Assembly (NCBI GenBank): GCA_008632985.1
Contig: QPGO01000073.1
Location: 1 to 64,000, forward strand
Reading direction: 5' to 3'
Length of the DNA: 64,000 nt
Source: Psammoneis japonica
Taxonomy: Eukaryota
Under the pieces are notes generated by a model, which had not been told where the DNA came from, searched no databases, and was given only the letters and a program-made list of their open reading frames with translations. The position numbers and the translations under genes were made by a program. Of the stretch, positions 1 to 41,666 are shown piece by piece. Within the stretch, counting starts at the first letter, position 1. Each line of letters starts with the position of its first letter.

Positions 1-137
1 CATGGCGCGTGATGGCTTGATTCGCACAATCCACAATGCGAACGCACGATCGATTTGAGGCGATCCAAATGCGAACGAATGGGGATTTGGCAAGATTCCC
101 CATTCGCACGATCCCACTTTCTCTGCTCTAAACCAGC

Positions 138-2778
138 TCACAAAGCCACAAATGGCGCAAAATCACAAAGGGCGCAAAATCACAAAGGGCGCACAATGTC
201 GGCAAAGGGTGCAAAATCACAAAGGGCGCAAAATGTCGGCAAAGGGTGCAAAATCACAAAGGTTGCAAAATCACAAAGGGCGCAAAATCACAAAGGGCAC
301 AAAATGTCGGCAAAGGGTGCAAAATCACAAAGGGCACAAAATGACAAATGGCGCCAAATTTAAAAGAGTGCAAAATGGCGGCAAATGGTGCAAAACCACA
401 AACGGCACAAAATCACAAAGGGTGCAAAATCACAAAGGGTGCAAAATGGCGGCAAAGGGTGCAAAATGACAAATGGCGCAAAATGACAAATGGCGCAAAA
501 TCACAAAGGGTGCAAAATGGCGGCAAAGGGTGCAAAATCACAAAGGGCTTGAGATGGCCAAGGGCACAAATTCACAAAGGGTGCAAAGTGGCGGCAAAGG
601 GCGCAAAATCACAAAGGGCGCAAAATGTCGGCAAAGGGTGCAAAATCACAAAGGGTGCAAAATCACAAAGGGCGCAAAATCACAAAGGGCGCAAAATTTT
701 GGCAAAGGGCACAAAATGACAAATGGCGCAAAATCACAAATGGCGCAAAATCACAAAGGGTGCAAAATGGCGGCAAAGGGTGCAAAATCACAAAGGGCTT
801 GAGATGGCCAAGGGCGCAAATTCACAAAGGGTGCAAAATGGCGGCAAAGGGTGCAAAATCACAAAAGGCGCAAAATCACAAAGGGCGCAAAATGTCGGCA
901 AAGGGTGCAAAATCACAAAGGGCACAAAATGACAAATGGCGCCAAATTTAAAAGGGTGCAAGATGGTGGCAAATGGCGCAAAACCACAAACGGCACAAAA
1001 TCACAAAGGGTGCAAAATGGCAGCAAAGGGTGCAAAATGACAAATGGCGCAAAATCACAAATGGCGCAAAATCACAAAGGGTGCAAAGTGGCGGCAAAGG
1101 GTGCAAAATCACAAAGGGCTTGAGATGGCCAAGGGCGCAAATTCACAAAGGGTGCAAAATGGCGGCAAAGGGTGCAAAATCACAAAATGCGCAAAATCAC
1201 AAAGGGCGCAAAATGTCAGCAAAGGGTGCAAAATCACAAAGGGCACAAAATGACAAATGGTGCCAAATTTAAAAGAGTGCAAAATGGTGGCAAATGGCGC
1301 AAAGCCACAAATGGCACAAAATCACAAAGGGTGCAAAATCACAAAGGGTGCAAAATGGCAGCAAAGGGTGCAAAATCACAAAGGGTGCAAAACCACAAAG
1401 GGCGCAAAATTTTGGCAAAGGGTGCAAAATCACAAAGGGCGCAAAATGACAAAGGGCGCGAAATGGCCAAGAGCCAAAAACAACAAAGGGCACAAAATGG
1501 CCAAGGGCTCAAAATCACAAAGGGCACAAAATGGCGGCAAAGGGCGCAAAATCACAAAGGGTGCAAAATGGCAGCTGAGGGTGCAAAATCACAAAGGGCA
1601 CAAAATGGCCAAGGGCTCAATGAATGCCACAAAGGGCGCAAAACGGCCAAGTGCTCAAAATGCTTCAAAGGGCACAAAATGGCCAAGGGTGCAAAATGGC
1701 AGCAAGGGCGCAAAATTGCAAAGGGCACAAAATCACAAAGGGCACGAAATGGCCAAGAGCCAAAAACAACAAAGGGTGCAAAATGGCCAAGGGCTCAAAA
1801 TCACAAAGCTTGCAAAATGGCGGCAAAGGGCGCAAAATCACAAAGGGCGCAAAATCACAAAGGGCACACAATGTCGGCAAAGGGTGCAAAATCACAAAGG
1901 GTGCAAAATCACAAAGGGCGCAAAATGTCGGCAAAGGGTGCAAAATCACAAAGGGTGCAAAATCACAAAGGGTGCAAAATCACAAAGGGCGCAAAATCAC
2001 AAAGGGCGCAAAATTTTGGCAAAGGGTGCAAAATCACAAAGGGTGCAAAATCACAAATGGCTCAAAATCACAAATGGCACAAAATCACAAAGGGTGCAAA
2101 ATGGCGGCAAAGGGTGCAAAATCACAAAGGGCTTGAGATGGCCAAGGGCGCAAATTCACAAAGGGTGCAAATTGGCGGCAAAGGGTGCAAAATCACAAAA
2201 GGCGCAAAATCACAAAGGGCGCAAAATGTCGGCAAAGGGTGCAAAGTCACAAAGGGCACAAAATGACAAATGGCGCCAAATTTAAAAGGGTGCAAAATGG
2301 TGGCAAATGGCGCAAAACCACAAACGGCACAACATCACAAAGGGCGCAAAATCACAAAGGGTGCAAAATGGTGGCAAAGGGTGCAAAATGACAAGTGGCA
2401 CAAAATGACAAATGGCGCAAAATCACAAAGGGTGCAAAATGGCAGCAAAGGGTGCAAAATCACAAAGGGCTTGAGATGGCCAAGGGCGCAAATTCACAAA
2501 GGGTGCAAAGTGGCGGCAAAGGGTGCAAAATCACAAAAGGTGCAAAATCACAAAGGGCACAAAATGTCGGCAAAGGGTGCAAAATCACAAAGGGCACAAA
2601 ATGACAAATGGCGCCAAATTTAAAAGGGTGCAAAATGGTGGCAAATGGCGCAAAACCACAAACGGCACAAAATCACAAAGGGTGCAAAATCACAAAGGGT
2701 GCAAAATCACAAAGGGTGCAAAATGTCGGCAAAGGGTGCAAAATCACAAAGGGTGCAAAGTGGCAGCAAATGGCACAA
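138..2778 (+). repeat. Satellite array of 17-bp (GGGTGCAAAATCACAAA) and 20-bp (GGGTGCAAAATGGCGGCAAA) monomers with a ~320-340-bp higher-order unit
   Basis: Monomers are directly visible. Marker GCCAAATTTAAAA recurs near 352, 941, 1262, 2274 and 2612; GGGCTTGAGATGGCCAAGGG recurs near 545, 795, 1116, 2129 and 2467. Confidence 0.95.
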
Positions 2779-2779
2779 A

Positions 2780-4090
2780 CTCATCATTTGGCTGAGCATG
2801 CAGCCACTGTTCCTGCATCATTTCCTCCACTTGTGTGGCAGCAGAGCCAAGTTTCAAGAGAAAAGTCACGTCTTTGTTGGGCAAAATGTTGGCTCCAAAG
2901 TCAATGAAATGCAGGCTTTGTTCTGCATTGTTGACTGCATCAGCTGCTGTTGCACCCACCTCAATGCACGAGATGTGCTCGCCACTGCCACTGTGCGATT
3001 TCTTAGCCCCCACTGCTTGTGCAGTGTGGATGCAGTTCTCCTTCAAATCCTTTGCGGCTGCCAGCAAATCAGAGGTGGGAAATTGCCCCTGCAATCAAAC
3101 CCCGTTTCCACGTGATTCCAAATGCCCTCTGCCACCCTCCAACCCTCGTCCTCTGACGCAATCTTGGTCAAAACCTTGAACACAGCAGAAAAGTGAAATT
3201 GCACAAAAAATCCCCTGATTTTGTTGTGAGAACCCAGCCTTTTCATTCTTTTGTTGCTGTTGCTGCGCTTGCTTTCAGGTGCTTCAAATGGGGAAAAATC
3301 TGACAGCTGCTTTCAGACAATTCTCTGCCAAATTTTTTTGTTGTTCTGTTGGTTCACCGCCTTTGTCTTCAGGAGGAAAAACAGGTTTGCAGTGTTTTCT
3401 GGCATGGCTGAGGCAAACATGCAGAACCACAATCAGCTCGTCTGTGAAGCAAGGCTTGTCTGGAATGCAGTGATGGCTGACATGGTGAAGACAGATGAAG
3501 ATGTTGACTCCAGCATGAGCAGTCTTGACAATGCCCAATTGAATGTGTGGCAGGTCAGACAGAGGAACCTGCTTTGGAGCCAAGCCCCTGACACAAACTG
3601 GCAAGTCTCCGGGCTCTCCATGGACAGCAAAATGACCTTTGCTGTTGACCTTCATCCCATCTGTGAGGGAACTCAAATGCAACTCTGCATGAACACCTTT
3701 GCAAAGCACCTGCATGAACTTGTCGGTGTCAATGCTTGCACCACAGATGGAATCTGCATCTTTGTGTAAAAAAATGATGTCACCATCTCTCAATTTTCTG
3801 TGTGGAAACAGCTCGGTGACAGTGTCGGTCTCCTTGTCTGCAGTGATTGTCCAACACTCTGGCAGTTTGATTGGACCGCCTTCCAGGCATTTGCCTTCTG
3901 CAGCCATTTGTTCAAATGCAAGCTGCTTTGCCTCCTCATCATTTGAAGCAGAGCAGATCATTTGATGCAAATTTTTCATGGTGGTGACATGCCCACACTT
4001 TTGGATCATGGACATGACAAGATCGCAGTGGGTTGGTTCGTCCATCTTGAAACAGGAGGCAGCGCCAAATCGATGCGGGACCACGTCCAT
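2780..4090 (-). pseudogene. Decayed ORF of unknown function, truncated by the satellite
   Basis: Protein-like frames 3284..4090 and 2744..3094 (SIDTDKF, LSDLPHIQLG, FIDFGANI), Tyr-free and Cys/His-rich. No family assigned. Confidence 0.4.
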
Positions 4091-11044: not shown

Positions 11045-14000
11045 TTTTGGGACTTGCCACAGGATGTGACTCATGATTTCCCGGAGCTTTGGTCCAGACG
11101 CGTTCCAGCCCTGGGTGGGAGCTCGCAGTGCTGACGTGTGACAACAACAATTTTTGTCATCCGTCGCATGTTTCGTGCACAGATTTCCACGTGTGACATT
11201 TAAAAAAAATTGTCCAGACTCGCTGTTTTGCGAAGCCCCAGACGTTTTACATGACAAATTTATGGAAACAACAATGCGCCAGTTACATTCTTCAATGTCT
11301 GAAGAATGTAACTTGCCAAGTAAAAAATGATCTGCTTCAATCATGTGCGAGTTTGTGCGTTCGCAAAATTGCCTCATTTTCTGTTGGCGATCATTGACAT
11401 TTTAATTGCCGCGTGATTTTACTGTGGAGCTCGCATGCAGAAGTCTGCGGGCCCAATGTCACACGGATTCCCACCTGCATCTGGAACGCGTCTCCAGGCA
11501 ACAACTCAGTCAGCACGTCCGCCAGATTCGTGCGCCCATCTTCCCAAGCAATGCGCGCCATTCCAGCGGCTTGTGCCTCACGAGTCCTGTGACAGGCAAT
11601 TGCATTGTGCTTCTTCTTCAAAGTGGACTCTGGTTTAGTTGAGTTCTTGAAGACAGCTTCATTGTTGCAGAAAATGTCAGTGGCCCCATCCATGGGGATT
11701 CCGAGCATCTGAAGCTTGCAGCGCAAGGCTTCAATTTGCTCCACTGCAGTCTTCACAGCCACGAACTCCGACCCAAAAGTGGAGGACTCTACGGCATTCT
11801 GCCGCTTGGAGTGACACATGATGGGTGCTCGTTGGATGAACATCAGGGTCCCAGTGTGGGACCTGCGCATCACACGGCATCCGGCGTGATCAGCATCGAC
11901 AAAGCAAGCAGTGGTCATGCTGTTCCCGCATGCTTCCAGCATGTTTGGCGGCATTGGTTCAGCCGCACCAGGGCAACATTCTTCCCAATCACACTTGGCA
12001 AAATGACTCTCGTCAAAGACAGGCTCAGTGTCATCGAACACTGGTGCAGACTCAGAGTGAGCCTTCAAGTGTGCAAAGATGTGGAGCACCTCGTCCAGGT
12101 GTCCAACTCGTGGTGCTGCCAAGCAGGAGGACATGAGCGAGACAGCGACAAAAATGTCCATGCGCCCCAGCTCAACTGCCCATCGTAGCACACCAACAAG
12201 GCCTTGGTGGCAGTTGGCCGTTCTGGCATTCAACTCAGGTGAGCCATCCAGTTCAGGCCCACATCCCAAGCTCAATGGCATCAACACCTTCGTCAGAAGG
12301 CACCTGTCAGTTTTCTTGAGCTCCAGCTCAACATCAGCTGATGCCCTTTTGACACACAAAGGTCAGAGGACATGGCCCAGCATGTCTTGCCATCCGAGTC
12401 AGACAACTGGTGCTTTCTGATCTGGGTGCCTGAGCGCTCTTCCGGCTCGCAGACACTTCCGTCCTTGAGCGTGTGCCCAGAGCTCATGTAATCCATGACC
12501 TTCTGAGGTTCATGGGAGACGCACAACAAGTCGTCCATGCAAACAAGTGCATGTTCCCAGCACTTGAAGCCATCCGGCTTAACTGCAGCTTGCATCCAAA
12601 CGTCTGGGTCAGCCTTGCAAGACTCGAACCCAGCATCACGCAAAGTTGCTGCCATGTGTTCTCTAAATCTTGCACCTGAAGACTTGAGACCACACAAGGC
12701 TCGGACAATGATTGCCGGCCTTCCTTTGTTGTGCTTCCCAAATTCCAGGCCAGCAGCAGCACAACACTTCTCCTTGGTGTGTGCATTCAAACAGGCATTC
12801 TGAACGTCGGCACTCAGGACCTCCAGGTTGTTGAGGGCTGCCATGGTGAATGCCATCCTAACACTGTCACGTGAAACCATGCTGGAACAAGTTGATTCTT
12901 TAGGTGGATCGGTCTGATGGCCTCCGGCCACGAACCTCACTTTACATTGGTTTGGTGCTCTTGATGTCAAAGATCACATGACAATCAACATGTTTGTGCC
13001 CGACCGGAACAGTGTCGTCATCGCGGAATTCGAGTGCAGGCATGACGTCATGCATTTCCCTCTTGATGGCCTTGAACCAGAAGTCAGTCCCCATTCTGTT
13101 GTCTGTTTCCATGGCTTCCTCAACAGAATTCAGGAGTTCAATTCTGAGCTGATGCGCGCACATTTCCAGCAACGCGACTTGACTTTCTTTAAGATCCTTG
13201 ACCTGTGATGCAAGACGTCTTGGACCAACCAGTTAAAAGCCGGTTCACTGGCTGCCTTGTTCGCCACAGCGTGCTCAGCAACCTTGACTGGACTGGATTC
13301 CTTCAAATCCTTGAGGGGAACCCAGGATGTGGTCCCATCCTTCCATTTGACTTGTGGGTCCCAACCTGCGGTCGTCCTCCCAGGAGCACGCCTGCCAGTC
13401 TCAGTCGTCATGCACCCGTTGTCAGCCTTTACAGCGCGGGCATCACTTTGGTGATCGACTGTTTCCTTCATGATTTGGCAGGCATTGCCTTCAGAGTCTG
13501 TCTGAGCAAATAGATTCTCTGCAATTTTGCCAGCAGCACAGGAGTCAGTGGATCCATCAGGGAATTCCACGTCATGTGTCCTTGAGTCTGGGACAGAGTT
13601 GTTGTTCCTGGTGCCAATGGGAACCCCGTCACTGTCCCGTTTGCATGCAACAACCCTGGCATGGGTCAGCTCACCTCCACATGGTGACATGACTTGAGCT
13701 GTGAGGCACTCGTCAAGCCCCTCCGGGGTGCACTCATCAGCTTCTGGTTTGGAAGCGTCGGGTTCCATGGGTTCAACAGCATTGCCCCATTTGTCCATGA
13801 AGTCATCAGGGAGTTCAGGGAAGTCAGCATTGGTGCCCTGTTCCAGGATGTCAAGTCATTCGATCAAGACCTGATCGACTGACACAAGATCCGCTTTGAT
13901 CGCCGGAGTTTCAAGGTCATCCTCCGGCATGGCCCACACATCTTTCCGAATGATGGGTCTGCCTGATTCGGGCAGGATGACAAATGCCATGTCGTCAGCG

Positions 14001-17000
14001 CAGTTGCAGTTGTTGGCTGCTCTGAGCCAATGGCCAATGCACTTCTTCTCATGTGGGAACTCTGCCACAGGCATGCAACAGTGGACAGGTTGATGCCAAT
14101 CAAAGAGAGAGAGGGATGAGATGTCAGGTGTTGAGCCTGTCACCTCCTCTTCTGGGACTCATCCTCCCACATCCAACATGCCAGTTGCAATCATGCGTCG
14201 GATGTCACATGTCCATTTGGCACTGCAGGACCAAAGTCACCTGTGAGTGCCAGTCCAGCACAGAGTCACGCAGACTCTTTTCTTCAACTCACAAATGGAT
14301 GCCTCGGCTGGGTTCTGCCAGAGGCTGTGTGGGGTGGACACCTCCTGGTGTGTCCTGTGTTCCTTGCAAATGTCCTTGGTCTGGCCTTCTGCCATTTCCG
14401 GCATGCCATCCAACACAAGGACTTGCGGCATGCCAACATCATGTGCAAATGACATGACGGCGTTTGGGTGGTCCTTTTTCTTTTCCAAGGATGGAACCCA
14501 TCATGCCCTCTTCCGTTGGCAAATGCACTTCCTCCCATCTCGCCACGCATCGATTTGACCTTCGAAAACATCTGGTCAGAGTAGAAGCATCCCTTGACAG
14601 CAGGGAACTTAAGCCACGGGGCTTTCTTTTGAACTTTCCGTTTGAATGGTGTGCAGACATTGTGGACCCCTGCCTGGGTTGCCACTCTAAGGGTGTTCTC
14701 AGTGGCCGTCAGACCAACGTCCCACCTCTAGAGAGTGTCTCGGGTGTGACAGTCGATGCACGACTCAAGGCTGACAGCGCATGCTCCCGTTTCTGCTCGG
14801 CACAATCCGGGTGGACATCCAGGTCACACGGGTCGTGCAGCCCGTCTCCCTCAACCACCCACCGCAGCACACCAACAAGGCCTTGACAGCAGTCAGCCGT
14901 TTTGGCATTCAACTCAGGTGAGCCATCCAGTTCAGGCCCACATCCCGAGCTCAAGGGCGTCGACACCTTCGTCGGAAGATGCCTGTCAGTTTTCTTGCAC
15001 TCTAATTCAACGTCAGCCAATGCTCTTTTGACACAAAGGTCAGAGGACACAGCCCAGCGTGTCTCACCATCTGAGTCAGACAGCTGGCACTTTCTGATCT
15101 GGGCGCCTGAGCACTCTTCTGGCTCGCAGACGCTTCCGTCCTTGAGCGTGCACCTGGAGCTCACACAATCCATGACCTTCTGAGGTTCATGGGAGACGCA
15201 CAACCAGTCATCCACGTAGACAAGCACATGTTCCCAGCACTTGAAGCCATCCGGCTTAACCGCAGCCCGCATCCAGACATCCGGGTCAGCCTTGCAAGAC
15301 TCAAACCCAGCGTCATGCAGAGCAGCTGCCACATGTTCCCTAAATCTTGCGCCTGAAGATTTGAGACAATGCAAGGCCCGGACAATGATCACCGGCCTTC
15401 CTTTGTTCTGCTTCCCAAATTCCAGGCCAGCAGTGGTGTGACACTTTTCCTTGGTGTGTGCATTCAAGCAGGCATTCTGAACGTCAGCACTCAGGACCTC
15501 CAGGTCATTCAGAGCTGCCACAGTGAATGCCATCCCAACGCTGTCACGCGACACCACGCTGGAACATGTCGATTCCTCAGGCAGATTGGTTTGATGGCCT
15601 CCAGCCACGAACCTTGCTTTGCGTTGGAGAGTGCTCTTGATGTCAAAGATCACATGACAGTCAATGTGTTTGCACCCGACCGGTGCAGCATCGTCATCGC
15701 GGAATTCAAATGCAGGCATGACGTTGCGCATTTCCTTCTTGATGGCTTTGAACCAGAAGTCGGTCCCCGTTCTGTCATCCATCTCCATGGCTTCCTCAAC
15801 AGATTTTGGGAGTTCAATTCCGAACTTGTGCATGCGTTTCCAGTGACGTGACTTGACTTTCTTCAGGATCCTTGACCTGCGGTGCAAGACGTCTTGGACC
15901 CACCAGTTGAAGGCTGGTTCACTGGCTGCTTTGTTTGCTGCAGCGTGCTCAGCAACCTCGACTGGGTTGGACTCCTTCAAATCCTTGAGAGGAACCCAGG
16001 ATGCAGTCCCATCCTTCCATTCGACCTGCAGGTCCCAGCCTGCTGTTGTCCTCCTGGGAGCACGCCTGCCAGTCTCAGTCATCATGCACCCATCATCGGC
16101 CGTCACAGCACGGCATCACGTCGGTGATTGACTGTTTCCTTCATGATCTGGCAGGCATTCCCTTCAGAGTCGATCTGAGCGAACAGGTTCTCTGCAATTA
16201 CGTTGGCAGCACAGGAATCAGTGGATCCGTCAGGGAATTCCACATCGTGTGCTCTCGAGTCCAGGACAGGGTTGTCGTTCCCAGTGCCAACAGGAACCCC
16301 GTCGCCATCTTGCTTGCGTGCAATGACCCCAGCATGAGTCAGCTCGCCTCCACGTGGCAACATGACTTGAGCTGTGAGACATTCATCTGGCCCTTCCGGG
16401 GTGCACTCATCAGTTTCCGGTTTGGAAGCGTCGGGTTCCACGGGTTCAATGGCATCGTCCCATTCATCCATGAAGTCGTCAGGGAGTTCAGGGAAGTCAG
16501 CACTGGCATCCTTTTCCAGGATGCTGAGCCGTTCGATCAAAGCTTGATCGACCGATGCAAGTTCCGTCTGGATCGCCGGAGTTTTAAGGTCATCCTCCGG
16601 CATGGCCCACACATCCTTCCAAATGATGGGTTTGCCTGATTCGGGCAAAATGATGAATGCCATGTCATCAGTGCAGTTGTCAGCTGCTCTGAGCCAACGG
16701 CCAATGCACTTCTTTTGTGTGGGAACTCCGCCACAGGCATGTGGCAACAAACAGGTTGACACCGGTCAAAGAGAGAGAGAGGGAAGAGATTTCGGGTGTC
16801 GAACCCGTCACCTCCTCTTCTGGGACTTGTCCTCCCATGTCCGATGTGCTGGTCGCAATCATGCAACGGATGTCACACATCCATTTGGTGCTGCAGGACC
16901 AAAGTCGCCTGTGAGCGCCAGTCCGGCGCAGAGTCACACGGACTCTTTTCTTCAACTCACGAATGGATGCCTCGGCCAGGTTCTGCCAGGGGCTGCAAGG

Positions 17001-19747
17001 GGTGGACACCTCCTGGTGCATCCTGCATTCCTTGCAGATCTCCTTGGTCTGGCCTTCCACCATTTCTGGCGCGCCATCCGACACAAGGACCTGCGGCACG
17101 CCAACATCATGTGTGGATGACATGATGGCGTCCGGGTGGTCCTGTTTCCTCTTCCAAGGATGGAACCATCACACCCTCTTCCGTTGGCAAATGCGCTTCC
17201 TCCTGTCTCGCCATGTGTCGATTTGACCTTTGAAAACATTTGGTCGGAGTAGAGTTGTCCCTTGGTTGCAGGGAACTTGAGCCAAGGGGCTTTCTTCCAG
17301 ACTTTCCGTTTGGATGGTGTGCAGACATTGCGGACCCCTGCCTGGGTCGTCACTCTGTGGGCATTCTCAGTGGCCGTCAGGCCAATGTTCCACCTTTTAG
17401 AGAGTGTCTCGGGCGTGACAGTTGATGCACGACTCGAGGTCGACAGTGCATGCACCCGTTTCCGCTCGGCACAATCCGGGTGGACATCCAGGTCATGCCA
17501 GTCATGCAGCCCGTCTCCCTCAGTGTCGTTGTGGGAGACATTTGCCTGAGCAACCAGGTGGTGATACAATGAATCATCGTCATTGGCATCCATGATGACA
17601 TTGTCATCGTGACAGGACGTTTGGCATGAAAGAATGGAGGCAACACACCTGGTCGCATTCATCATCGCCGACCGTCCATCCGACTTTGCTGATCCTTGGC
17701 GCACACCAGCACATGCATGCGCTTCCTCCTTTTGCGCCAGGGCATCAGCAGAAGGCTCCCATCTCAGGGGTGATGTGAGTTCCAGCCGGGGGAGGTTCTC
17801 CAGATCCTCCTTTGTCAGCTTGTGTGAATCAAAGACTGAAGCAACACCTCGCAGTTTCGCAATGGGATCCTGATCTTTGAGTCAGGGAAAGAAATGGAGT
17901 GTGTGCCAGTCGGATCAAACTGGTGAGGGGTGTCGTGGACAATCAGCCCATTCGCTCGCAGTTGGTTGGGGCACAGGAGGGTGTTGGTCATCTTGTCCCC
18001 GAAAAACATGGCCTCGTGGACTGGGAGCAGGTGTGGTTGTCCATCAGTTGGATCAACCCACACGGCAGCAGCCGTGCAAATGGGAATGTTTTCCATTGGT
18101 GCGCGCTCTTCGGAGCAGGGGTGAACCACGACAGTTCTGTCGATGTCAGAGCACATCACAAAATTGGACCCAACAGCACACGTGTCAGCGTGCGAGTCCA
18201 AATCAGTGGTGGCTTTGTCATCTGAATTTCCAGCAGATGACAAAGAGACATGTGCATCATTTAAAAATTGCCTGGACAAATGAACAGTGCCAGCAGGTGT
18301 GGCAACAATCGGTTCTACACCTGCCAGTGCTGGCGCAACTGTTCATTCCTCCTTCTGAGGTTTCTCATGCGCACTGCGTCCGAACTGGGTACCTGCATTG
18401 GCGGCAGGTTTGTCAGGCTCTTTGGAGTCTTTCGGTGCATCAGCAGGTTGAGAAGTGGGCTCGGCAACAGCCACTTTCTTTGCACACGAGTTTAGCCTCC
18501 GAGGACGCAGCAGCAGCTTTGCGTTTCTTCTCAGCCTTCTTGGCATCGCGGAGCTTTTGGACTTGCTCTCATTCGGGACCGTCAAGAGCACTCCACTCTT
18601 CGACAGGACAATGGCCTGCCCGGATTCTGGGCTTGTCCTTTTTAGGTTGGTGCTTCCCACCAGGGTCAGTGCGCCAATTGTTGCGGCATTGGATGGATGC
18701 AACCCCGCGAGCATCAGCATTGCGGTTCTTGGCATTCTTGACCAGAGTTTTCACATGCTGCTGGCATGCCTCAAAGTCCGCTAGCTTCGTTGGGTCTCCA
18801 TCCACTGCGCTCTTGCCAGTTTCCAACCTGGGGTCGGAGATGCCCTTCAGAAAGTCAGAGACCTTCTTGGTCTTGGCTGCTGGTTCGTCAAGCTCAGACA
18901 AGTCGTTGTGAGCCTTTTGATGATGCTGAATGTGCTGGTCAAATGTAAATCGACCCCATCCGGTGTGCTTTGCAGCAGCAATCTGTGCATGAGCACGGTT
19001 CTTTCAGGCAGTGGCAGCAGCCGATCCTTCCGCCTGCCTCTCAAGTGTGAAGAAGGCAGCACGACCATCGCGATTGCGATTGGAAGGTTTGACAAAAGCC
19101 CATCCGGGCCCCCCTGTCACCAACTTCTTCAAGAGGTCATGCAGGCGTTGCCTGTCCTGTGCATGCTGAGCTCCTGCAAGATGGGCAGCAGCAACAAGGT
19201 CCTCGTCAATGGCAGTGCAGGCAGCAGCCAACATCGCAGCGGTGACTTCTTCATGTTCCCCAACCAGGCAGACAAGGGGCACTCCGGCAACGGCACTGCG
19301 GTGGTGACGCAGTTCGGTCTCCAATGGCTCCTGGAAGGTGGGCCAGTCATGTGGGTTCTTGAGTTCCACGGCGGTTTTGGCAGCCAATTCGTCATCCGAG
19401 TCGGCGGACTTGAATTGCTCCAGTTCCGTCAGACGTGCCGTCCATGTCCCAATGACGTCGCCAGCGAAGAGAGCAGCGGTCGGCTCTTGATTCTGAGCTC
19501 TGCGGCAGTCAATCCATGCGCGCAGTGCCTTGAGCTTGCGATTTGCCAGGTGGGGAAAGCGGACTTGGGGGGCAGCGGCGGCATCCACGCTTTTCATGAT
19601 GCCCTTGGTCATGTCGGCAATTTCCATCAAAGGAACCTGTTCCAGGTCCTTGATCGCAGCAAAGCCTTGGCGGGCCATGCAGGCACACGTCTGTGCATTG
19701 CACCCACAATGCGCAAGACAGGCGGCAAAGGCTGCGGCAGCGGCCAT
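11045..19747 (-). pseudogene. Copia 1 gag-pol, frameshifted and hypermutated
   Basis: Gag ~19747-18340, protease ~18250-17850, two integrase/RT copies, RNase H ending LLPG|PKLREIMSHILW across the MITE; many frameshifts. Confidence 0.9.
11097..11492. mobile_element. MITE, GAC...GTC family, subtype A, inserted in the copia 1 RNase H end
   Basis: Perfect GACGCGTTCCAG / CTGGAACGCGTC ends; TSD TCCA; removing it rejoins the RNase H protein. Confidence 0.95.
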
Positions 19748-34476: not shown

Positions 34477-36000
34477 TACACCTGACCTCTGTGTTGCCAA
34501 CACCACTGCAGAGTGGAAAAGGTGATGCGTCAGCCAGAACAAAGCCTCTGCTCTTGGAAGAGTCGAGCATCCGGATTTTGTTGTGGAGTCTCTCCACTCA
34601 CAAATCAACTGTGTTGTTCTTTGGACTCCATGGCAGACCACCTTTGATCTCCGAGAAAGCCTCGGAATCCACATCCTCAAGAGGACCCGAATTTCCATTG
34701 ATCACATCAAAGTCACCTGCCAGTGTTTTCACTGCAAACCAAAGCTGGTCTGTCCCTTTGAACATGGATTCTCTCTTGCCTGCAGACAATTTGTTCATCA
34801 CCTTTTCTGGCAGCAACCACCCCTCACTGCAGGACAAACAGTGGCTGGATTGATGTGGCCAAGAAACAAGTCATCACAATCCACGCCAAAATCCTTTTTC
34901 AATGTTGGTTTTCCAACAGAGAATGGAGGCAAGGTGGCAGGAGACTCCACCAGAACAACCAAATTTGTTTCACCCGGTGACTTGCCAACAACACATTGTT
35001 TGCCATCTGTGTGGATTCAATCATTGGCGCTTTCTGTGATTTGTTGGATGGCCACACACACTTGAGTTCTTTGTGTGTGTCTTTGAGGAAATTCTCCAAA
35101 ACATTGGCATCAAGAGCAGAGCCAAGCAAGGAGAGTTTGCCGGTGCCTTCCATTGTCAGCACTGCTCAGTGGTGGTCTCTACAAAATGTTGAAGAATGCG
35201 CAACATGTGCCAACGTTGGGCATTGAAACCAAACGGGCCTCCAGAGCAGAGAGTTCCAAGTGAGATTCATCATCCCAGGCAGACTGCTTGTTCTCAATTG
35301 TCGCTGATGCGGCAAAACTTAGAACTCATTTCAAATCTCATTGAGATCTTAAAAAGCAACCAGACAAGTCACTTGATGAGATCTGTGGCTCCTGCTGTGC
35401 AACAACTCGGGACATGCCTGGGAGTGACTGGGACCCAAATTGACGCTGTTGTCACATTGCTGCGGCAGGCTGAAAGCAGGCAACATGTTCAGCAATCTGT
35501 GCAAATTGAACGAATGCTTTTGGTCAACTGGGGCAATGTCCTGCACAAAGAATGGCGTTCCTTGTGAACCAGGGGCCAACTGACAATGGTTTCCATTGGC
35601 TCTGTGGTGGGCAAACTGTCAACTGGCTGCACCTGGCTGTCTTCCTGCAAGAAAGACCAGGCCACAAATCACCAATCAACAAGAAATGCAGCAGCTGCTT
35701 GGCCTCTCTTGAGCTCCTTTGTGGATCATTTCTCTGCAATGCCAACCTGCTTTTTGGCTTGATTCTCTCCATGGAATCATGCACGTCAATGAGTGAAAAG
35801 GGACCGCGCTCTTGTGCAGGCATGTCAATCTGTCCCCTGCGTCCTGGCTGGCTGGGATGAGGTCCTTCCATTGGCAATGCTGGGATGTCAGCAGCGGTGC
35901 ACCATCCTTTGGAATTCTCAAACAGCCAAGCATTTGTGAAGCAGCAAAAACATGATGTGACCAGACGACGGACTGGAAAATCCCCCAATTCTTGTCCTTC

Positions 36001-39000
36001 TGCACTGTGCTCGAAGAACGAGTGCAAACGAAAGTAGAACAGTGTACGAAAAGTGGAAATCATGAGACCAGATTTTGCTCTGTGATTTTTGGTTTCTCCG
36101 AATGAGTTCTCAATGGCCTGAAGCTTCTGCACTGCTTCTGCAGACAAAAGGCCTTTCGGAGAACACAATCGTGACAACAGACAGTCCGAGTGCGATTGCT
36201 TTTGACACATGAGATGTCAGCATCGTCTGTCAATCGCATTTGCGATTTTCGACTTCCGACCAACTCTGTGTGATCGTTCTGTCCTTCGCACGCATCCACG
36301 ACTGTGGCACGATTGACATGCAAACAACACACAATCATGTGTGTGTGTGTGACAGTCGCATGCTGCACTCGCCTCCCTAATTGCACATTAGAGTCATTTG
36401 TCAAGTGGATTGTTCGACGGATGTTGACAGTGTCAATGATGTCTCCACGTTCACTGCACTGTGCCATTGGCAATGACTGTTGTCGTTTTGTACAGGCCAT
36501 GTGGGGCCGTTCCAATTTCCGAATGTCTTGTGAGAGTGACATCGTTTGTTTCTCACTTTGTGTGTGTGTGTGTGTGGCATTGCGTCGAGTGTTCTCGTTG
36601 ACGTTTTTTGTTGACATGAACACAAGGACCAACTGTCCTGCAGTGTTTTTCATGACATCGATTGCACCTGGCATTGTGCCCAGCACTCAATGCACGCTCT
36701 TTTAACCATTGTGGCATTCACTTCACTTGTGGAGTTCATGTGGTTCTGGCTGGCTAACTTTGTGTGTGCCACACTGCTCTGCTGCACTTCCACGTGTTGC
36801 AAGCAATTGACGATGGTCAAGGACATTTTCCAACCATTTTGTCTTGACAATCCTGGGATGGTTGTGGACTCCTTTGTGGATTTCTTTGTTGCTTCAACCA
36901 TCTTTCCTTTGGATTTTGATCGTCATTTGGACATTTCTTTTTGACATGCCGGCAACATTTTGTCATTCCGAAGGCACTGCTTTTGTGCACTGTTCGGACA
37001 AATGTCCATTTTTGTGTTTTGTTTCTGAATCTTTGGCACATCTCGTGTGACGTCATTTATGTCTTGCCTCGTACATCGTACATTGCAATCGTGCGGGTGC
37101 TGTGAGATTGTCTTTTGCCAATGTGAAGCAGGTGCGTGCAATGTGCGCCAATCTGTCACTGATTTTTTCTTTAACCGTCCCTGAGTGAGGCGATTTTTTC
37201 CTTGTGACATGAGCATTTTTGATCTCGCTCGCCTCCACGAAAAGTGTTCGTATGACATGTCGCGTCCGACAATTTGGAGGAAATGTCTTTGTCCCGTTTT
37301 GTTCAGCATCGAGAACTTTGCAGTTCAACGGAAAGACATTGTCGCAGGATTTTGGTGGGACCTTTTCAGCCAACTCTTCTGTGCTGAGGTTTTCCACAGG
37401 TTCTATTTTTTTGCAGCAAGTCGGCTGATCGCTCTTGCGACGACGTTTGCCTTGCCCTCGATGTGTTTTATTTTGGGGCTAGAATTCTGCACTCTAAGTC
37501 GTCAACGCATGACTCTGTCCATTGTGTGTTGTGAACCGCATGCACAATGATCTGTTGGCCAAACAGCACATTCCAGGAATTGTTGAGTGTTTCCACTGTG
37601 GACAGAAGTTCTTTTTCCGTTGTGACTTGAACATTGCAATGCCGTGTTTGATGGTGACATGGTTTTTGATGTGATGCGCTCCACATTTTCGGAGACTTTT
37701 CGTTCTGCACTTGTCCTTTTGCCGTTTGACCTTTGTTGAGGTGGATTTGGCTGGAAATGTGCAGGAGATCATTGAGACTGCATGTCTTTGTGGTGGCAAC
37801 ATGTGTCGACAAGCTGTCATAATTTTCTTTGCGTTTTGCTCAATGTTGCGATTGCCGGAATCGCCTCCATTTTCTTTGCAATCGGATGTGTGCCGTTGCG
37901 CATGGAAGTCTTGACAACATTTTTCAAGTCAAGCAGTGAAGGACTTTTGTTTGTTGACCTTCAAAGCGACTGTTCCAGTCGTGTGAATGCCATTTCAAGT
38001 TTTTCTTGTGCAGGTGACATTTTGAAGTTACTTTCTGTCAGGTACAAACGTTCATTCATGGTCGTTCTGACAACTTTAAACCTGTCATGAGTTCGCTCAT
38101 GTGTTGCACGAAAATGTCTGGGGCTCTGCAGATTCTCATTGGAAGTCCACAGCACTCAATTTCCCCCACGGCAACATTCTGAGGTGAGCACAACGTGTGC
38201 TTTTTTTGATTTTACATTGTGGTGTTCCATGTTTGAATCGCAACTTCATTTTTAAATCTTCAATCTTTCACAATTGGCCAAATTCCTTTCAAATGGACGC
38301 CTCCAAAGACTGTGACAGGAGAAGGTTCTCGCACGTCGCGTAATCGCGTCAGATTTTTCACGGTGAGATCCACTGGTTCTTCCCATTCATTTGTCCAACG
38401 AACTTTTTCAAAAGGATTTTAAACCTCACAAGAAGGAGACTGAGTGGTTCATCTTCTTTTGGTTCAGATGCATTGCTGCAGCTGTCACTTGATTAGAGTC
38501 GACGGCGTGACAATGTGAGTCGAGAACCATCGGTCTCGTTGTTAACTCTGTTCACTGTGTGATGTTTTTCAATGTGATCGGCACTCAGCTGGAACATTTT
38601 TGCATCGAAGAGTGCATCAACATTCTTCACAGGGTAATTGCTTCACCCCCATTTGATTTCTTCAATTGCGCAGTCTAGTGTGATTGCAAGACTGGACATC
38701 AATTCGCGTCCCATGATCATGTCATTCGACCTTGAAGGGCATTTGGTGTCATTGACACACACTGTTTGAATGTCAGCAAGTCTTAAATTCGCGCAGTGAG
38801 AACTGAATTCGGTGTTTGCTGTCAGTCGTAAAGAGCTCACCCTTGGTTTCCCAAGTTTTTTGGTGGCGGACATCTTGGTTCTCAACTTTCGCACGATTTT
38901 GCGTAAAATCATGGGCTGACGATGTTCTTCATCGAGAGAACACGCAGAAGCTTGTTTTTTGCTTTTCTCAGAGAAGTGATCACATAGACAGCGAGGGTGG

Positions 39001-40636
39001 GACTCGCACAACACACTGTGATGCTTTTTCTGGGTTTCCAGACGTCCTGCAACGCGTTGTGCTCCTTGAGCGGTGTGAATTTTTGATCGGACTCGATCGG
39101 GTCAATTTTTCTAAATTGACAGTTTTGTTCGTCAAGCATTTTAGAGTCTTAATTTTTGCTCTTGTTTTTACGTTCCTTTGTCGAGGAACTCGCTTCAATT
39201 GTTTTTGTGAACTGCCTGGTTCATGGTTCAGTTCAATTCCTCTTTCACAGAGGCATTTCTGCTCTCGTCACGTTCGCGTGCGATTGCCATTTAGAGCGTC
39301 GTATTTTTGGGTCTCTTTTAGAGCCACCCTTGCACTCTTTCGCCAACTCATTTTCAGAATGGCTTCAATCCGTGATGTGGGCATTCTTCTTTCAAAGATT
39401 GGACCTTTTGTTCACTTTGGATTGTGGTGGCACCACACAGGAGACCATTTTTGGAACCAAAATTGGAGCCTTTTTGATTGTGGAATCAACTGCACTGTCA
39501 GAGCCCGGGTTGATGTGTTTTTTTTGTCACAGACGTCCTTGCCGACCTCTGGACGACTCAAACCTCAATCAGCTCGTCAAGGGTGTGATCCAGCAGTTCA
39601 ATGTTTTGGACAGTGGGCTGATGCTGCCATCCTTGCGGTGCGAGTGACAGCTGACAAATCAGCGCTCGGTTTCCCGCTAGATTCGACTTAGAATCCATCT
39701 GAGGGTCGTGTGGACTCTCATCGTTGACCTCTTGGGTCTGTCAGAGGCTTTCTTGCTGTTGAGCGGCTCTGGTTTCTTCAGGTCGTCTCGAAAATAATTT
39801 CCCTGATTCTGAAGTGCATTTCCTCGGAGGACATGAGTTGTGAGACGCTTGAGGCACTTTCCAACGATTCCCTCTTGCTCCTTGGACTCGAGGATCATCG
39901 ACTCGGTCTCAAAAAACTCCCCAACAGTCTCTCCTTGCATGGCAGACGCATTTCTCGGATCTGATCGACTCGGAACTTGCACTCTCTGCAACCATGACTT
40001 GGTGTAGATTTTTTGACAATGCAGTGCACTTGAGAGCCCTTGATCCTTGGGTGCTTGGAGCAGACCGCATTGGAGCGAATCCTCTTGTTTGGCAGACGAA
40101 AAACAGCGTTCCATCTTGAGGCACTGCTCGGCTTGAGCTTCTTCCGCTCGGAAATCGATTCCAGCAGAACTGATGCGATTCGTTCCTGTTCACAGAAGAA
40201 TTTGCAAAGGCACATTAGTTGAAATTTTCATTTTCCGTGCTTTTTACCTTCTGTGGTGTGTGTGCACAATGCACCATGCTCAAAGAACGAGTGCAAACGA
40301 AAGCAGAACAGTGCACGAAAAGTGGAAATTATGAGATTAGATTTTGCTCTGTGATTTTTGGTTTCTCCGAATGAGTTCTCAATGGCCTAAAGCTTCTGCA
40401 CTGCTTCTACAGACAAAAGGCCTTTCGGAGAATGCAATTGTGACAACAGATGGTCCGAGTGCGATTGCTTTTGACACACAAGATGTCAGCATCGTCTGTC
40501 GATCGTATTTGCGATTTTCGACTTCCGATCAACTCTGTGTGATCGTTCTGTCCTTCGCACGCATCCACGACTGTGGCACGATTGACATGTGAACAACATG
40601 TGATCATGTGCATGCACACAACAGTCGCACACTGCA
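36001..40636 (-). mobile_element. Ty3/gypsy LTR retrotransposon, degenerate and internally shortened
   Basis: 367-bp LTRs at 36001-36367 and 40270-40636; TSD CTTC; PPT GGAGGCGAG; protease-like DMIMGRELM (~38710), RT remnant LPM...PDIF (~38130) and RNase H TTEKELLSTVETL (~37600) in gypsy order. Confidence 0.9.
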
Positions 40637-41666
40637 CTTCTTTGGACAAGCAGTGTTGGCACTGCTGCAAGTTTTGTCCATGACGATGGCAATTCATGCA
40701 GTTCCTTTCACATGGGACAAGTGAATTGATCAGTTCCTGAGTTGTCCCAAAGTCTGTGTGGTGGCAGACAATGTTCTTTTCCAACAAAAGCATGTGCTGC
40801 GGGTCCTCTGGCAACAAAGTCTGAACATGCATCAAATCTGCAAGTGTGCAATCAACTTCAATGGGGTTTGGAAACCTCGCCTTGATTGTCAAACAACAAC
40901 TCTTGTCATTTGTTGCATTGACAAACAGCAAGCACGGAACACCTGTTGTTTGTGTTGTTGTTTGTGCAGAAGTCAAATGCATCACTGTCAGCCAACCAAT
41001 TGGTGTGTGCTGCACCAACTGCAATGAAAATTGCTGCTTGTTGTGATCTTGCTCAAATCTTGTTAAGAACAAGATTGTCAGTTTTTTTGTGCAGACAATT
41101 GCCAAATCATTGATTGATTCTTGACAAGAGATGAACAACATGACAAGATTTGTCAATTGTTCATGAATGAACAACAATCAACAAAGCCACCTGTGCAACT
41201 AAAACTTGGTGCAAAACTGTCCTGAGCCAATGATGCAAGCAATGTGTCACCCAAAAATGCATCTGCACCTTGTGTCAATGTTGGTGCAGCAGCTGACAAC
41301 AGAAGAGCAGCCATGGACAAAAGCAGTCAGGGTGAGACTGCTGCCTTTTTGCACTTTTTAGATGACAATCTTGACGTTCTGAGCCCAAACAATGGCAATG
41401 TGTCCCTTGGTTTGTTGTCACCCTCACCACATTGAGAGAGGAAAAAACAACCACAAGAAGCTGCTTGCCCCACCAAGCAATGTTCATCTGTTTGAAGAAG
41501 GTGTCAACAACACCTCTGACATTCGGAGTTTGGAAAGTCTGCCAAAAATCACCGCTTCCCAACAAAAGGATGGATCCAAAACCAAGGAACTGTTTGGCTG
41601 TTTCTTGGATGAACCCCTTCAACCATTCATCCTGAAACAGCAGAGCACTGTGAGGAGACTGTCACC

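What the first reader, a model, noticed from the sequence alone, without database searches (positions are those of the whole stretch)
36001..40636. Gypsy LTR twins fix the direction and show mutation after insertion
LTRs are identical at insertion. Here each keeps TA where the other lost it. Left AAGTAGAAC and GTGTACG match right AAGCAGAAC and GTGCACG. Right ATTATGAGATTAG, GCCTAAAG, TTCTACAG and TCGTATT match left ATCATGAGACCAG, GCCTGAAG, TTCTGCAG and TCGCATT. The ends read TGCA...TGCA rather than TGTA...TACA. Changes arose in chromosomal DNA, which argues against RNA editing before reverse transcription. LTR-divergence dating would be inflated.
Basis: partly seen in the sequence, partly recalled or inferred. 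Interest (0 to 1): 0.78.

Follow-up and report, generated by a model that had tools for sequence, protein, structure and literature searches.

The report
TA-erasing mutation in diatom retrotransposon
The two end repeats of a recently inserted jumping gene in a diatom differ almost only because TA pairs were rewritten to TG or CA after it landed, the footprint of a DNA-editing process so far published only for one unrelated alga, and it makes young transposons look far older than they are.

Summary
The LTR pair is real: 367 bp each, 4-bp target duplication CTTC, 36 differences, all transitions. 31 lie at sites that are TA in sister copies. The pair alone cannot fix direction; the family does. 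In 40 target-duplication-matched pairs, 662 of 761 differences lie at TA sites and only 3 are transversions. TA-rich copies are nearly identical to each other, and other CA/TG sites almost never become TA. So TA→TG/CA, on both strands, after insertion. An empty allele exists in one public run, so the insertion is polymorphic. LTR dating is inflated about 20- to 200-fold. TAY is hit about twice as often as TAR. 45 of 58 off-target A→G changes lie within 2 bases of a converted TA on the same strand. Conversion comes in patches of about 0.6-2 kb with raised CpG decay. Best explanation: a chromatin-directed DNA adenosine deaminase (inferred, about 55%). The same signature is published for Bigelowiella natans; my searches found none for diatoms. 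The scan found the process and the TAY rule before on other DNA of this genome; I saw no note on the bystander clusters.

The parts
35997..36000 (.). Left copy of 4-bp target-site duplication (CTTC)
   Evidence: 39 of 40 pairs have a 4-bp duplication, 1 has 5 bp
36001..36367 (-). 3' LTR, 367 bp, TGCA ends; keeps 2 TA; 16 post-insertion TA conversions not shared with its twin
36368..36381 (-). Polypurine tract next to the 3' LTR (inferred from position and purine content)
   Evidence: sequence
36796..39073 (-). Broken pol remnants in the order protease-like region, RT (about 38245-37658), RNase H (about 37665-37299), integrase zinc-finger region and partial core; frameshifts, stops and deletions
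   Evidence: tblastn to the open pol frame of relative L110, whose Pfam order is RVT_1, RT_RNaseH, Integrase_H2C2, rve; no Pfam hit in the window's own frames read with X at stops, RT_RNaseH hit in TA-rich sister L051
39104..40302 (-). Broken gag-like remnant
   Evidence: tblastn to the 411-aa first frame of L110, E 3e-35; that frame has no Pfam hit, so 'gag' rests on position
40249..40269 (-). Sequence at the primer-binding position; does not begin TGG; a GTATAC palindrome of TA-rich copies is converted here
   Evidence: no match to the LTR for self-priming found
40270..40636 (-). 5' LTR, 367 bp, TGCA ends; keeps 5 TA; 14 post-insertion TA conversions not shared with its twin
   Evidence: a contig of run X1 joins 40570-40666 with no other letters
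40637..40640 (.). Right copy of target-site duplication (CTTC)
   Evidence: an empty allele joins 35996 to 40637 in run X1

Best explanation
A young, non-autonomous Ty3/Gypsy element inserted into already TA-depleted diatom DNA and was then hypermutated in place: A:T→G:C at TpA, on either strand. SHOWN: direction, timing after insertion, both strands, TpA specificity, preference TAY > TAG > TAA, same-strand bystander changes within 2 bases, kilobase patches, raised CpG decay in hit patches without raised transversions. INFERRED: the agent is an adenosine deaminase acting on DNA (TadA/ADAT-type fold) that is brought to silenced, CG-methylated transposon chromatin, opens a few bases of one strand, turns the A of TA into inosine (copied as G) and sometimes hits a neighbouring A. 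Once one strand is changed the site is no longer TA, so CG is almost never reached. The effect is to cripple transposon proteins by missense change (Tyr→His/Cys, Ile→Thr/Val/Met) without creating stops in sense codons.
For: Direction: the four most TA-rich LTRs differ by 3-14 bases, while LTRs with 8 or fewer TA mostly differ by 20-57; TA-site cells are TA 1284, TG 637, CA 623, CG 19 of 2720; 43 other CA/TG columns show TA in 5 of 3440 cells; TA sites of outgroup L110 read TA 59 / CA 8 in sister L051 but TA 12 / TG 33 / CA 20 in the window. After insertion: 142 CA/TG and 360 TA/CA-or-TG twin states in 40 pairs; a second family gives 202 of 240 twin differences of the TA/CA/TG kinds, 6 transversions. 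Both strands: 335 CA, 309 TG. Specificity against natural copy L051 over 22 copies: A>G 0.263 after T, 0.017 after C, 0.008 after A, 0.006 after G. Next base: 297 of 891 for C/T against 67 of 397 for A/G, twins only (p 6e-10); an engineered TadA shows YAY > YAR (PMC12528748, passages). Bystanders: 45 of 58 off-context A>G lie within 2 nt of a converted TA on the same strand, 7 on the opposite, 1 intact, 5 with no TA near, though only 39 of 161 columns are near a TA; internal data agree at -2 (95/1083 vs 12/1225), +1 and +2. CpG decay 105/2232 in hit patches vs 16/1446 in spared ones (p 3e-10); transversions 0.001 vs 0.0025. Same proposal made for B. natans (10.64898/2026.01.13.699255).
Against: No enzyme is identified. 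The searches show only housekeeping candidates: one ADAT2, one TadA with an N-terminal extension, a dCMP deaminase in two records, one deaminase-oxygenase fusion, two A_deamin genes; no expanded family or chromatin-domain fusion was seen among 5 and 4 matches. An endonuclease V gene is present, which may repair inosine (recalled). Sequence cannot tell a change of the A from a change of the paired T. C before A is hit about 15 times less than T before A, stricter than the YA preference of engineered TadA. No long same-strand runs: coordination is seen at 2 nt (76 of 107, null 0.50) but not from 3 nt on. Methylation was not measured; it is inferred from CpG decay. Flank TA content predicts LTR conversion only weakly (rho -0.26, p 0.02; within-element test p 0.55).
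Confidence: 0.55

Rival explanations
1. Thymine-centred chemistry: a TET/JBP-like or other enzyme modifies the T of TpA in silenced DNA, and the product pairs with G or is mis-repaired, giving T→C.
For: Gives the same TA→CA/TG pattern and the same clusters seen from the other strand (logic).
Against: No PF12851 match in the genome, but the control rang nowhere, so the search is uninformative. The context read on the A strand (T before, pyrimidine after) matches a known deaminase family; I know no thymine enzyme with an RTA rule (recalled).
Confidence: 0.17
2. Error-prone patch synthesis (polymerase eta type) during repair in methylated repeats.
For: Pol eta mutates A in WA motifs, TA→TG included (PMC7884765, passages); short same-strand clusters and the link to CpG decay would fit repair patches.
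Against: WA includes AA, but A after A is hit at 0.008 (0.004 away from TA) against 0.263 after T; transversions are not raised in hit patches.
Confidence: 0.1
3. Editing of the cDNA during reverse transcription or before integration, not of the chromosome.
For: Twin differences alone do not exclude edits made on unintegrated DNA; APOBEC3 acts at this stage (recalled).
Against: No strand bias (335 vs 309); flanks and non-retroviral DNA carry the same mark: a satellite at 1-3000 has TA at 0.01-0.04 of expected, a tandem duplicate near 12-17 kb differs by 146 CA/TG changes (it lies in a Copia, so not fully independent), and B. natans mutates integrated DNA during growth.
Confidence: 0.07
4. Opposite direction (RIP-like CA/TG→TA gain in some copies) or CpG decay from CG ancestors.
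For: TA/CA and TA/TG pairs, and CA/TG doublets, are formally compatible. CpG decay is real: 37 C>T among 761 twin differences.
Against: TA-rich copies share the same TA sites and are nearly identical; other CA/TG columns stay put (5 of 3440); true CG columns keep CG in most LTRs and CG is 19 of 2720 cells at TA sites; outgroup agrees.
Confidence: 0.02
5. Assembly artefact: LTR pairs stitched from different copies.
For: One record pair (L037/L083) differs mainly beside a run of N, which looks like a gap-filling error.
Against: No N in the window or the 40 elements; target duplications match in 40 of 40; a contig of run X1 joins the converted right LTR end to its flank with no other letters. The left junction was not shown among the listed contigs. 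The TA-specific spectrum would remain in any case.
Confidence: 0.04

Closest known systems
TpA hypermutation of integrated NCLDV and virophage DNA in Bigelowiella natans (Mettrop et al., bioRxiv 10.64898/2026.01.13.699255; read: abstract, introduction, results, discussion, conclusion = parts 1-3 of 5, plus passages; supplements not seen)
   Same: A:T→G:C transitions at TpA giving TpG or CpA, on both strands, confined to foreign DNA, deaminase proposed, enzyme unproven.
   Different: Different supergroup (diatom vs chlorarachniophyte). There measured in lines, mainly in two viral regions, one shown to be single-copy, all 230 GC-biased changes at TpA; here multi-copy transposons, near saturation, patches within single elements, about 8% bystander changes. 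The main text has no 'diatom', 'LTR' or 'neighbo'.
Repeat-induced point mutation (RIP) of fungi (recalled; described in passing in the B. natans preprint)
   Same: Repeat-directed, transition-only, dinucleotide-specific hypermutation that inactivates transposons and distorts their dating.
   Different: RIP is C→T and creates TA and stop codons; this removes TA and leaves long open frames with missense changes. Dependence on pairing or on sex was not tested here.
TadA/ADAT adenosine deaminases, incl. engineered DNA editors (PMC12528748, passages)
   Same: A→G, pyrimidine before the A, YAY > YAR, bystander edits close by.
   Different: Natural TadA/ADAT act on tRNA; here C before A is hit about 15-fold less than T; no protein link shown.
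ADAR editing of retroelement RNA (optimal motif UAG; PMC10661471, passages)
   Same: A→G with U/T before the A.
   Different: Here G after the A is disfavoured, both strands are hit equally and twins differ.
Ty3/Gypsy LTR retrotransposons
   Same: LTRs with TG...CA ends, target duplication, polypurine tract, RT-RNase H-integrase order.
   Different: This family is non-autonomous: no frame of 250 aa or more on the sense strand in any of 41 copies examined.

Membership tests
B. natans-type TpA hypermutation | A:T→G:C transitions dominate | tested here: met
   662 TA-site transitions + 58 off-context A>G of 761 twin differences; 3 transversions
B. natans-type TpA hypermutation | Changes fall on TpA, giving TpG and CpA on both strands | tested here: met
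   662 of 720 A>G-type differences at TA sites; 335 CA, 309 TG; most of the rest lie beside a converted TA. Not as exclusive as reported for B. natans.
B. natans-type TpA hypermutation | Confined to foreign DNA; genes spared | tested here: met
   TA 0.0-0.19 of expected at 1-54 kb, 0.33-0.75 in gene-bearing kilobases at 54-58 and 60-64 kb (genes). One window only.
B. natans-type TpA hypermutation | Rate about 1000-fold above background, in a subset of lines | not testable with these tools
   Needs mutation accumulation; relative excess is 20- to 200-fold in divergence, near saturation
B. natans-type TpA hypermutation | Same enzyme (ADAT2 proposed) | tested here: inconclusive
   One ordinary ADAT2 gene with diatom homologues; presence is expected in any eukaryote
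Fungal RIP | C:G→T:A, gain of TpA | tested here: not met
ADAR RNA editing | One strand only, identical in both LTRs, UAG preferred | tested here: not met
Polymerase eta signature | Both TA and AA are hotspots | tested here: not met
   0.263 vs 0.008
Ty3/Gypsy | LTRs with target duplication | tested here: met
Ty3/Gypsy | RT, RNase H, integrase in this order | tested here: met
   By homology to L110; no Pfam hit in the window's own frames
Ty3/Gypsy | Placement in an RT phylogeny | not tested
   No tree built
Ty3/Gypsy | tRNA primer-binding site or self-priming sequence | tested here: inconclusive
   No TGG start; no exact 8-12 nt self-priming match in the LTR; tRNA ends not compared

The most novel reading that the evidence does not exclude
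Diatoms run a natural DNA adenine editor as genome defence, an A-to-G mirror of RIP: a deaminase steered to silenced transposon chromatin that works in a bubble of about 5 bases with a TAY rule, converts most TA sites of a new insertion before any ordinary mutation accumulates, and is shared with chlorarachniophytes as an old eukaryotic system. It would be a native double-stranded-genome adenine editor.
Probability: 0.4. Interest if true: 0.9.

Novelty: new variant of a known kind. Interest (0 to 1): 0.72.

Why it matters
It extends a process published for one rhizarian alga to diatoms and to ordinary transposons, and gives the enzyme a fingerprint (TpA, pyrimidine next, same-strand bystanders within 2 bases) against which candidates can be screened. 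A natural DNA adenine deaminase would be of direct interest for base editing. It also matters for dating: over 40 pairs the LTR distance is 0.055, but 0.0028 without the A→G changes and 0.0003 without CpG decay as well. A recent comparative preprint dates diatom LTR elements from sequence identity with a constant P. tricornutum rate, and its text has no 'dinucleotide' or 'hypermut' (10.1101/2025.10.24.684338, passages); in species with this process such ages would be far too old. Whether those species have it was not tested here.

Tried and rejected
TGTA→TGCA ends: rejected. An early impression that 3' LTRs are always hit more than 5' LTRs vanished with more copies: totals 333 vs 311 events; it came from the search query. 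L037 vs L083 as alleles differing at TA sites: rejected, 17 of 19 listed differences sit in the LTR beside a run of N. One LTR pair without a target duplication (L039_1) was dropped before all pair counts: 40 of 41 kept. Long same-strand runs: none beyond 2 nt. Spreading from flanks: weak or absent. The spared RNase H region in 9 of 10 copies of the second family is not counted as evidence, because these copies were found by their RNase H score; likewise L069-L078 were found with a TA-rich internal query. Tyr counts against L110 were too few to use (6-7 positions a copy). A homologue search in the wrong frame found nothing. PF12851 search uninformative. No RNA holder listed. Paper searches: diatom + transposable elements + TpA + mutation (5 papers, none relevant by listing); diatom + dinucleotide + repeat-induced point mutation (1, Tetrahymena); diatom genome/TA dinucleotide/depletion/repeats, 3 of 4 terms (162, 25 listed, none relevant by listing); TpA + hypermutation + diatom (0); diatom + A-to-G + transposable element + hypermutation (0). 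The library lacks most subscription journals, and bioRxiv supplements could not be seen.
Full report
Setting. The window is G000:C73:1-64000. The host is a diatom: named relatives of its ADAT2 include Skeletonema and Thalassiosira proteins. From 1 to 54 kb TA stands at 0.0-0.19 of expectation; in gene-bearing kilobases at 54-58 and 60-64 kb it is 0.33-0.75.

The observation. The two 367-bp repeats align without gaps and differ at 36 positions, all transitions. They are flanked by CTTC on both sides. 31 differences fall in the 68 columns that are TA sites in sister LTRs: 12 TG/CA doublets and 7 single TA-versus-CA/TG sites. Three are CpG decay and two are T>C outside TA (p 3e-18).

The element. 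It lies on the minus strand, 4636 bp. Its frames are broken and give no Pfam hit, but they match in order the two open frames of a relative with 80% similar LTRs (L110), whose pol has RVT_1, RT_RNaseH, Integrase_H2C2 and rve in Gypsy order. None of 41 copies has a sense frame of 250 aa, including copies whose LTRs differ by 1-3 bases, so the family spread as a non-autonomous form (inference). In run X1 a contig joins 35996 to 40637 (depth 43) and another joins the right LTR to its flank (depth 35), so empty and filled alleles coexist. X1 may be the source sample and is not independent support.

Direction. The pair alone cannot give it. I took LTR matches from two searches that each scored 40 of about 470 candidates and an internal search that scored 40 of 245, so this is a sample, chosen by likeness to one TA-poor LTR, one TA-rich LTR and one TA-rich internal stretch. 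It yielded 41 LTR pairs; 40 with matching target duplications were kept. The four most TA-rich LTRs differ by 3-14 bases, TA-poor ones mostly by 20-57. At 34 TA sites the 80 LTRs read TA 1284, TG 637, CA 623, CG 19. At 43 other CA/TG columns TA appears in 5 of 3440 cells. Where the outgroup L110 has TA, sister L051 mostly has TA and the window mostly TG or CA. RNase H motifs show the same: KYIEG in L057 reads KHIEG in the window. The direction is TA→TG/CA.

Timing and dating. Twins differ at 761 of 14680 positions: 662 at TA sites, 58 in CG columns, 41 elsewhere; 3 are transversions. Of the 99 outside TA sites, 58 are A>G, 37 CpG C>T, 1 other C>T and 3 transversions. Events private to one twin are 335 CA and 309 TG. 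Some pairs have one LTR untouched and the other nearly saturated (30 vs 5 TA, 4 vs 29). A second family gives the same picture in 10 of 10 pairs. K2P distance is 0.109 for the window pair and 0.055 for all pairs, against 0.0028 without A>G and 0.0003 without CpG decay as well: inflation about 20- to 200-fold. The lower figure rests on 4 differences and is rough. Gene conversion between LTRs could lower the background but would also erase TA differences.

The ends. All 80 LTRs start and end with TGCA, as do the TA-rich LTRs of the second family.

Fingerprint of the mutator. Against natural copy L051, over 22 copies, A>G is 0.263 after T, 0.017 after C, 0.008 after A and 0.006 after G (this count includes changes inherited from parent copies). 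A pyrimidine after the A doubles the rate, also in twin-only data (0.33 vs 0.17); the TAY rule was noted earlier in this scan. Off-context changes are bystanders: 45 of 58 lie within 2 nt of a TA converted on the same strand, 7 on the opposite strand. Internal data give 8.8% vs 1.0% at -2, 5.8% vs 1.2% at +1, 4.2% vs 1.4% at +2, and no strand effect at -3. In TATA runs neighbours change on the same strand in 76 of 107 cases; from 3 nt on there is no coordination. So each event touches about five bases of one strand. Conversion is patchy: autocorrelation is 0.32 at 100-300 bp and 0.02 at 600-1000 bp. Hit patches lose CpG four times faster than spared ones, with no rise in transversions or non-CpG C>T. 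The window's element is hit throughout: of L037's 276 TA sites, 46 remain TA, 110 are CA, 110 TG, none CG. Pairs of copies share the derived state at a median of 65% of sites, none above 89%, so the events are largely independent.

Mechanism. Shown: what changes, when, on which strands, in which context and in which patches. Inferred: deamination of A in DNA by a TadA/ADAT-type enzyme directed by silent chromatin (0.55). For it: A>G only, pyrimidine-A-pyrimidine context as in an engineered TadA (PMC12528748, passages), tight bystanders, and the same proposal for B. natans. Against it: no special enzyme was found, and sequence cannot separate an attack on A from one on the paired T (0.17). Polymerase eta fails on AA (0.10). 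cDNA-stage editing is unlikely given strand symmetry and the same mark in a satellite and in flanks (0.07). The remaining probability is for routes I have not named.

What is known. Mettrop et al. (bioRxiv 10.64898/2026.01.13.699255; parts 1-3 of 5 and passages read) measured TpA→TpG/CpA hypermutation in integrated viral DNA of B. natans and propose ADAT2. I found the paper through earlier notes of this scan. Five searches found no report for diatoms. The scan has noted the process many times in this genome, twice from other LTR pairs. This locus works like the B. natans system and meets its sequence criteria; shared enzyme and rate were not testable. It is not RIP.

Verdict. Real and correctly read in direction and timing, with one wrong argument. 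A new variant of a barely described kind: new lineage, transposon targets, near saturation in young insertions, and a bystander signature. Interest 0.72.

Noticed in passing
Element positions about 1200-1900 from the 3' LTR end (RT end and RNase H); L036, L038, L043, L047, L049: The same stretch of about 600-700 bp is spared while both sides are converted, in 5 of the 9 mapped copies of the larger subfamily that came from the TA-poor LTR search, and similarly in L035; their conversions are independent. It suggests a bound protein or internal promoter. Other copies that show it were selected for it and are not counted.
   Followed up: partly
L078; L037: Twins with equal, reduced TA counts (11/11, 19/20) and few differences: conversions were inherited from a parent copy, so partly edited copies can still be mobilised.
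   Followed up: partly
Flanks of 40 elements: Most insertion flanks are themselves TA-depleted: 62 of 80 have fewer than 7 TA in 300 bp, so the family lands or persists mainly in already edited DNA.
   Followed up: partly
L110 and relatives (L118-L125, L065): Heavily converted copies keep long open frames (up to 1066 aa) in which Tyr reads Cys or His, e.g. in the RT motif; open frames are no sign of function here.
   Followed up: partly
L039:5505-7847: A 781-aa frame with DUF7869 nested in the LTR element, low in Tyr (5), probably a DNA transposon that carries the same mark.
   Followed up: partly
window 1-3000: Satellite of 17- and 20-bp units with almost no TA.
   Followed up: no
window 12170-17370: Tandem duplicate of about 2.67 kb in a Copia-type region (RVT_2 at 14712-16115), 84% identical; differences are mainly CA/TG (146) and CpG decay (100), an older stage of the process.
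   Followed up: partly
   Followed up: no
L094 (G000:C79): A 491-aa frame joining a zinc deaminase domain to what looks like a 2-oxoglutarate oxygenase domain (second domain judged by eye).
   Followed up: no
window 40249-40269: No TGG-type primer site after the 5' LTR; TA-rich copies have a GTATAC palindrome there. Priming mode unknown.
   Followed up: partly
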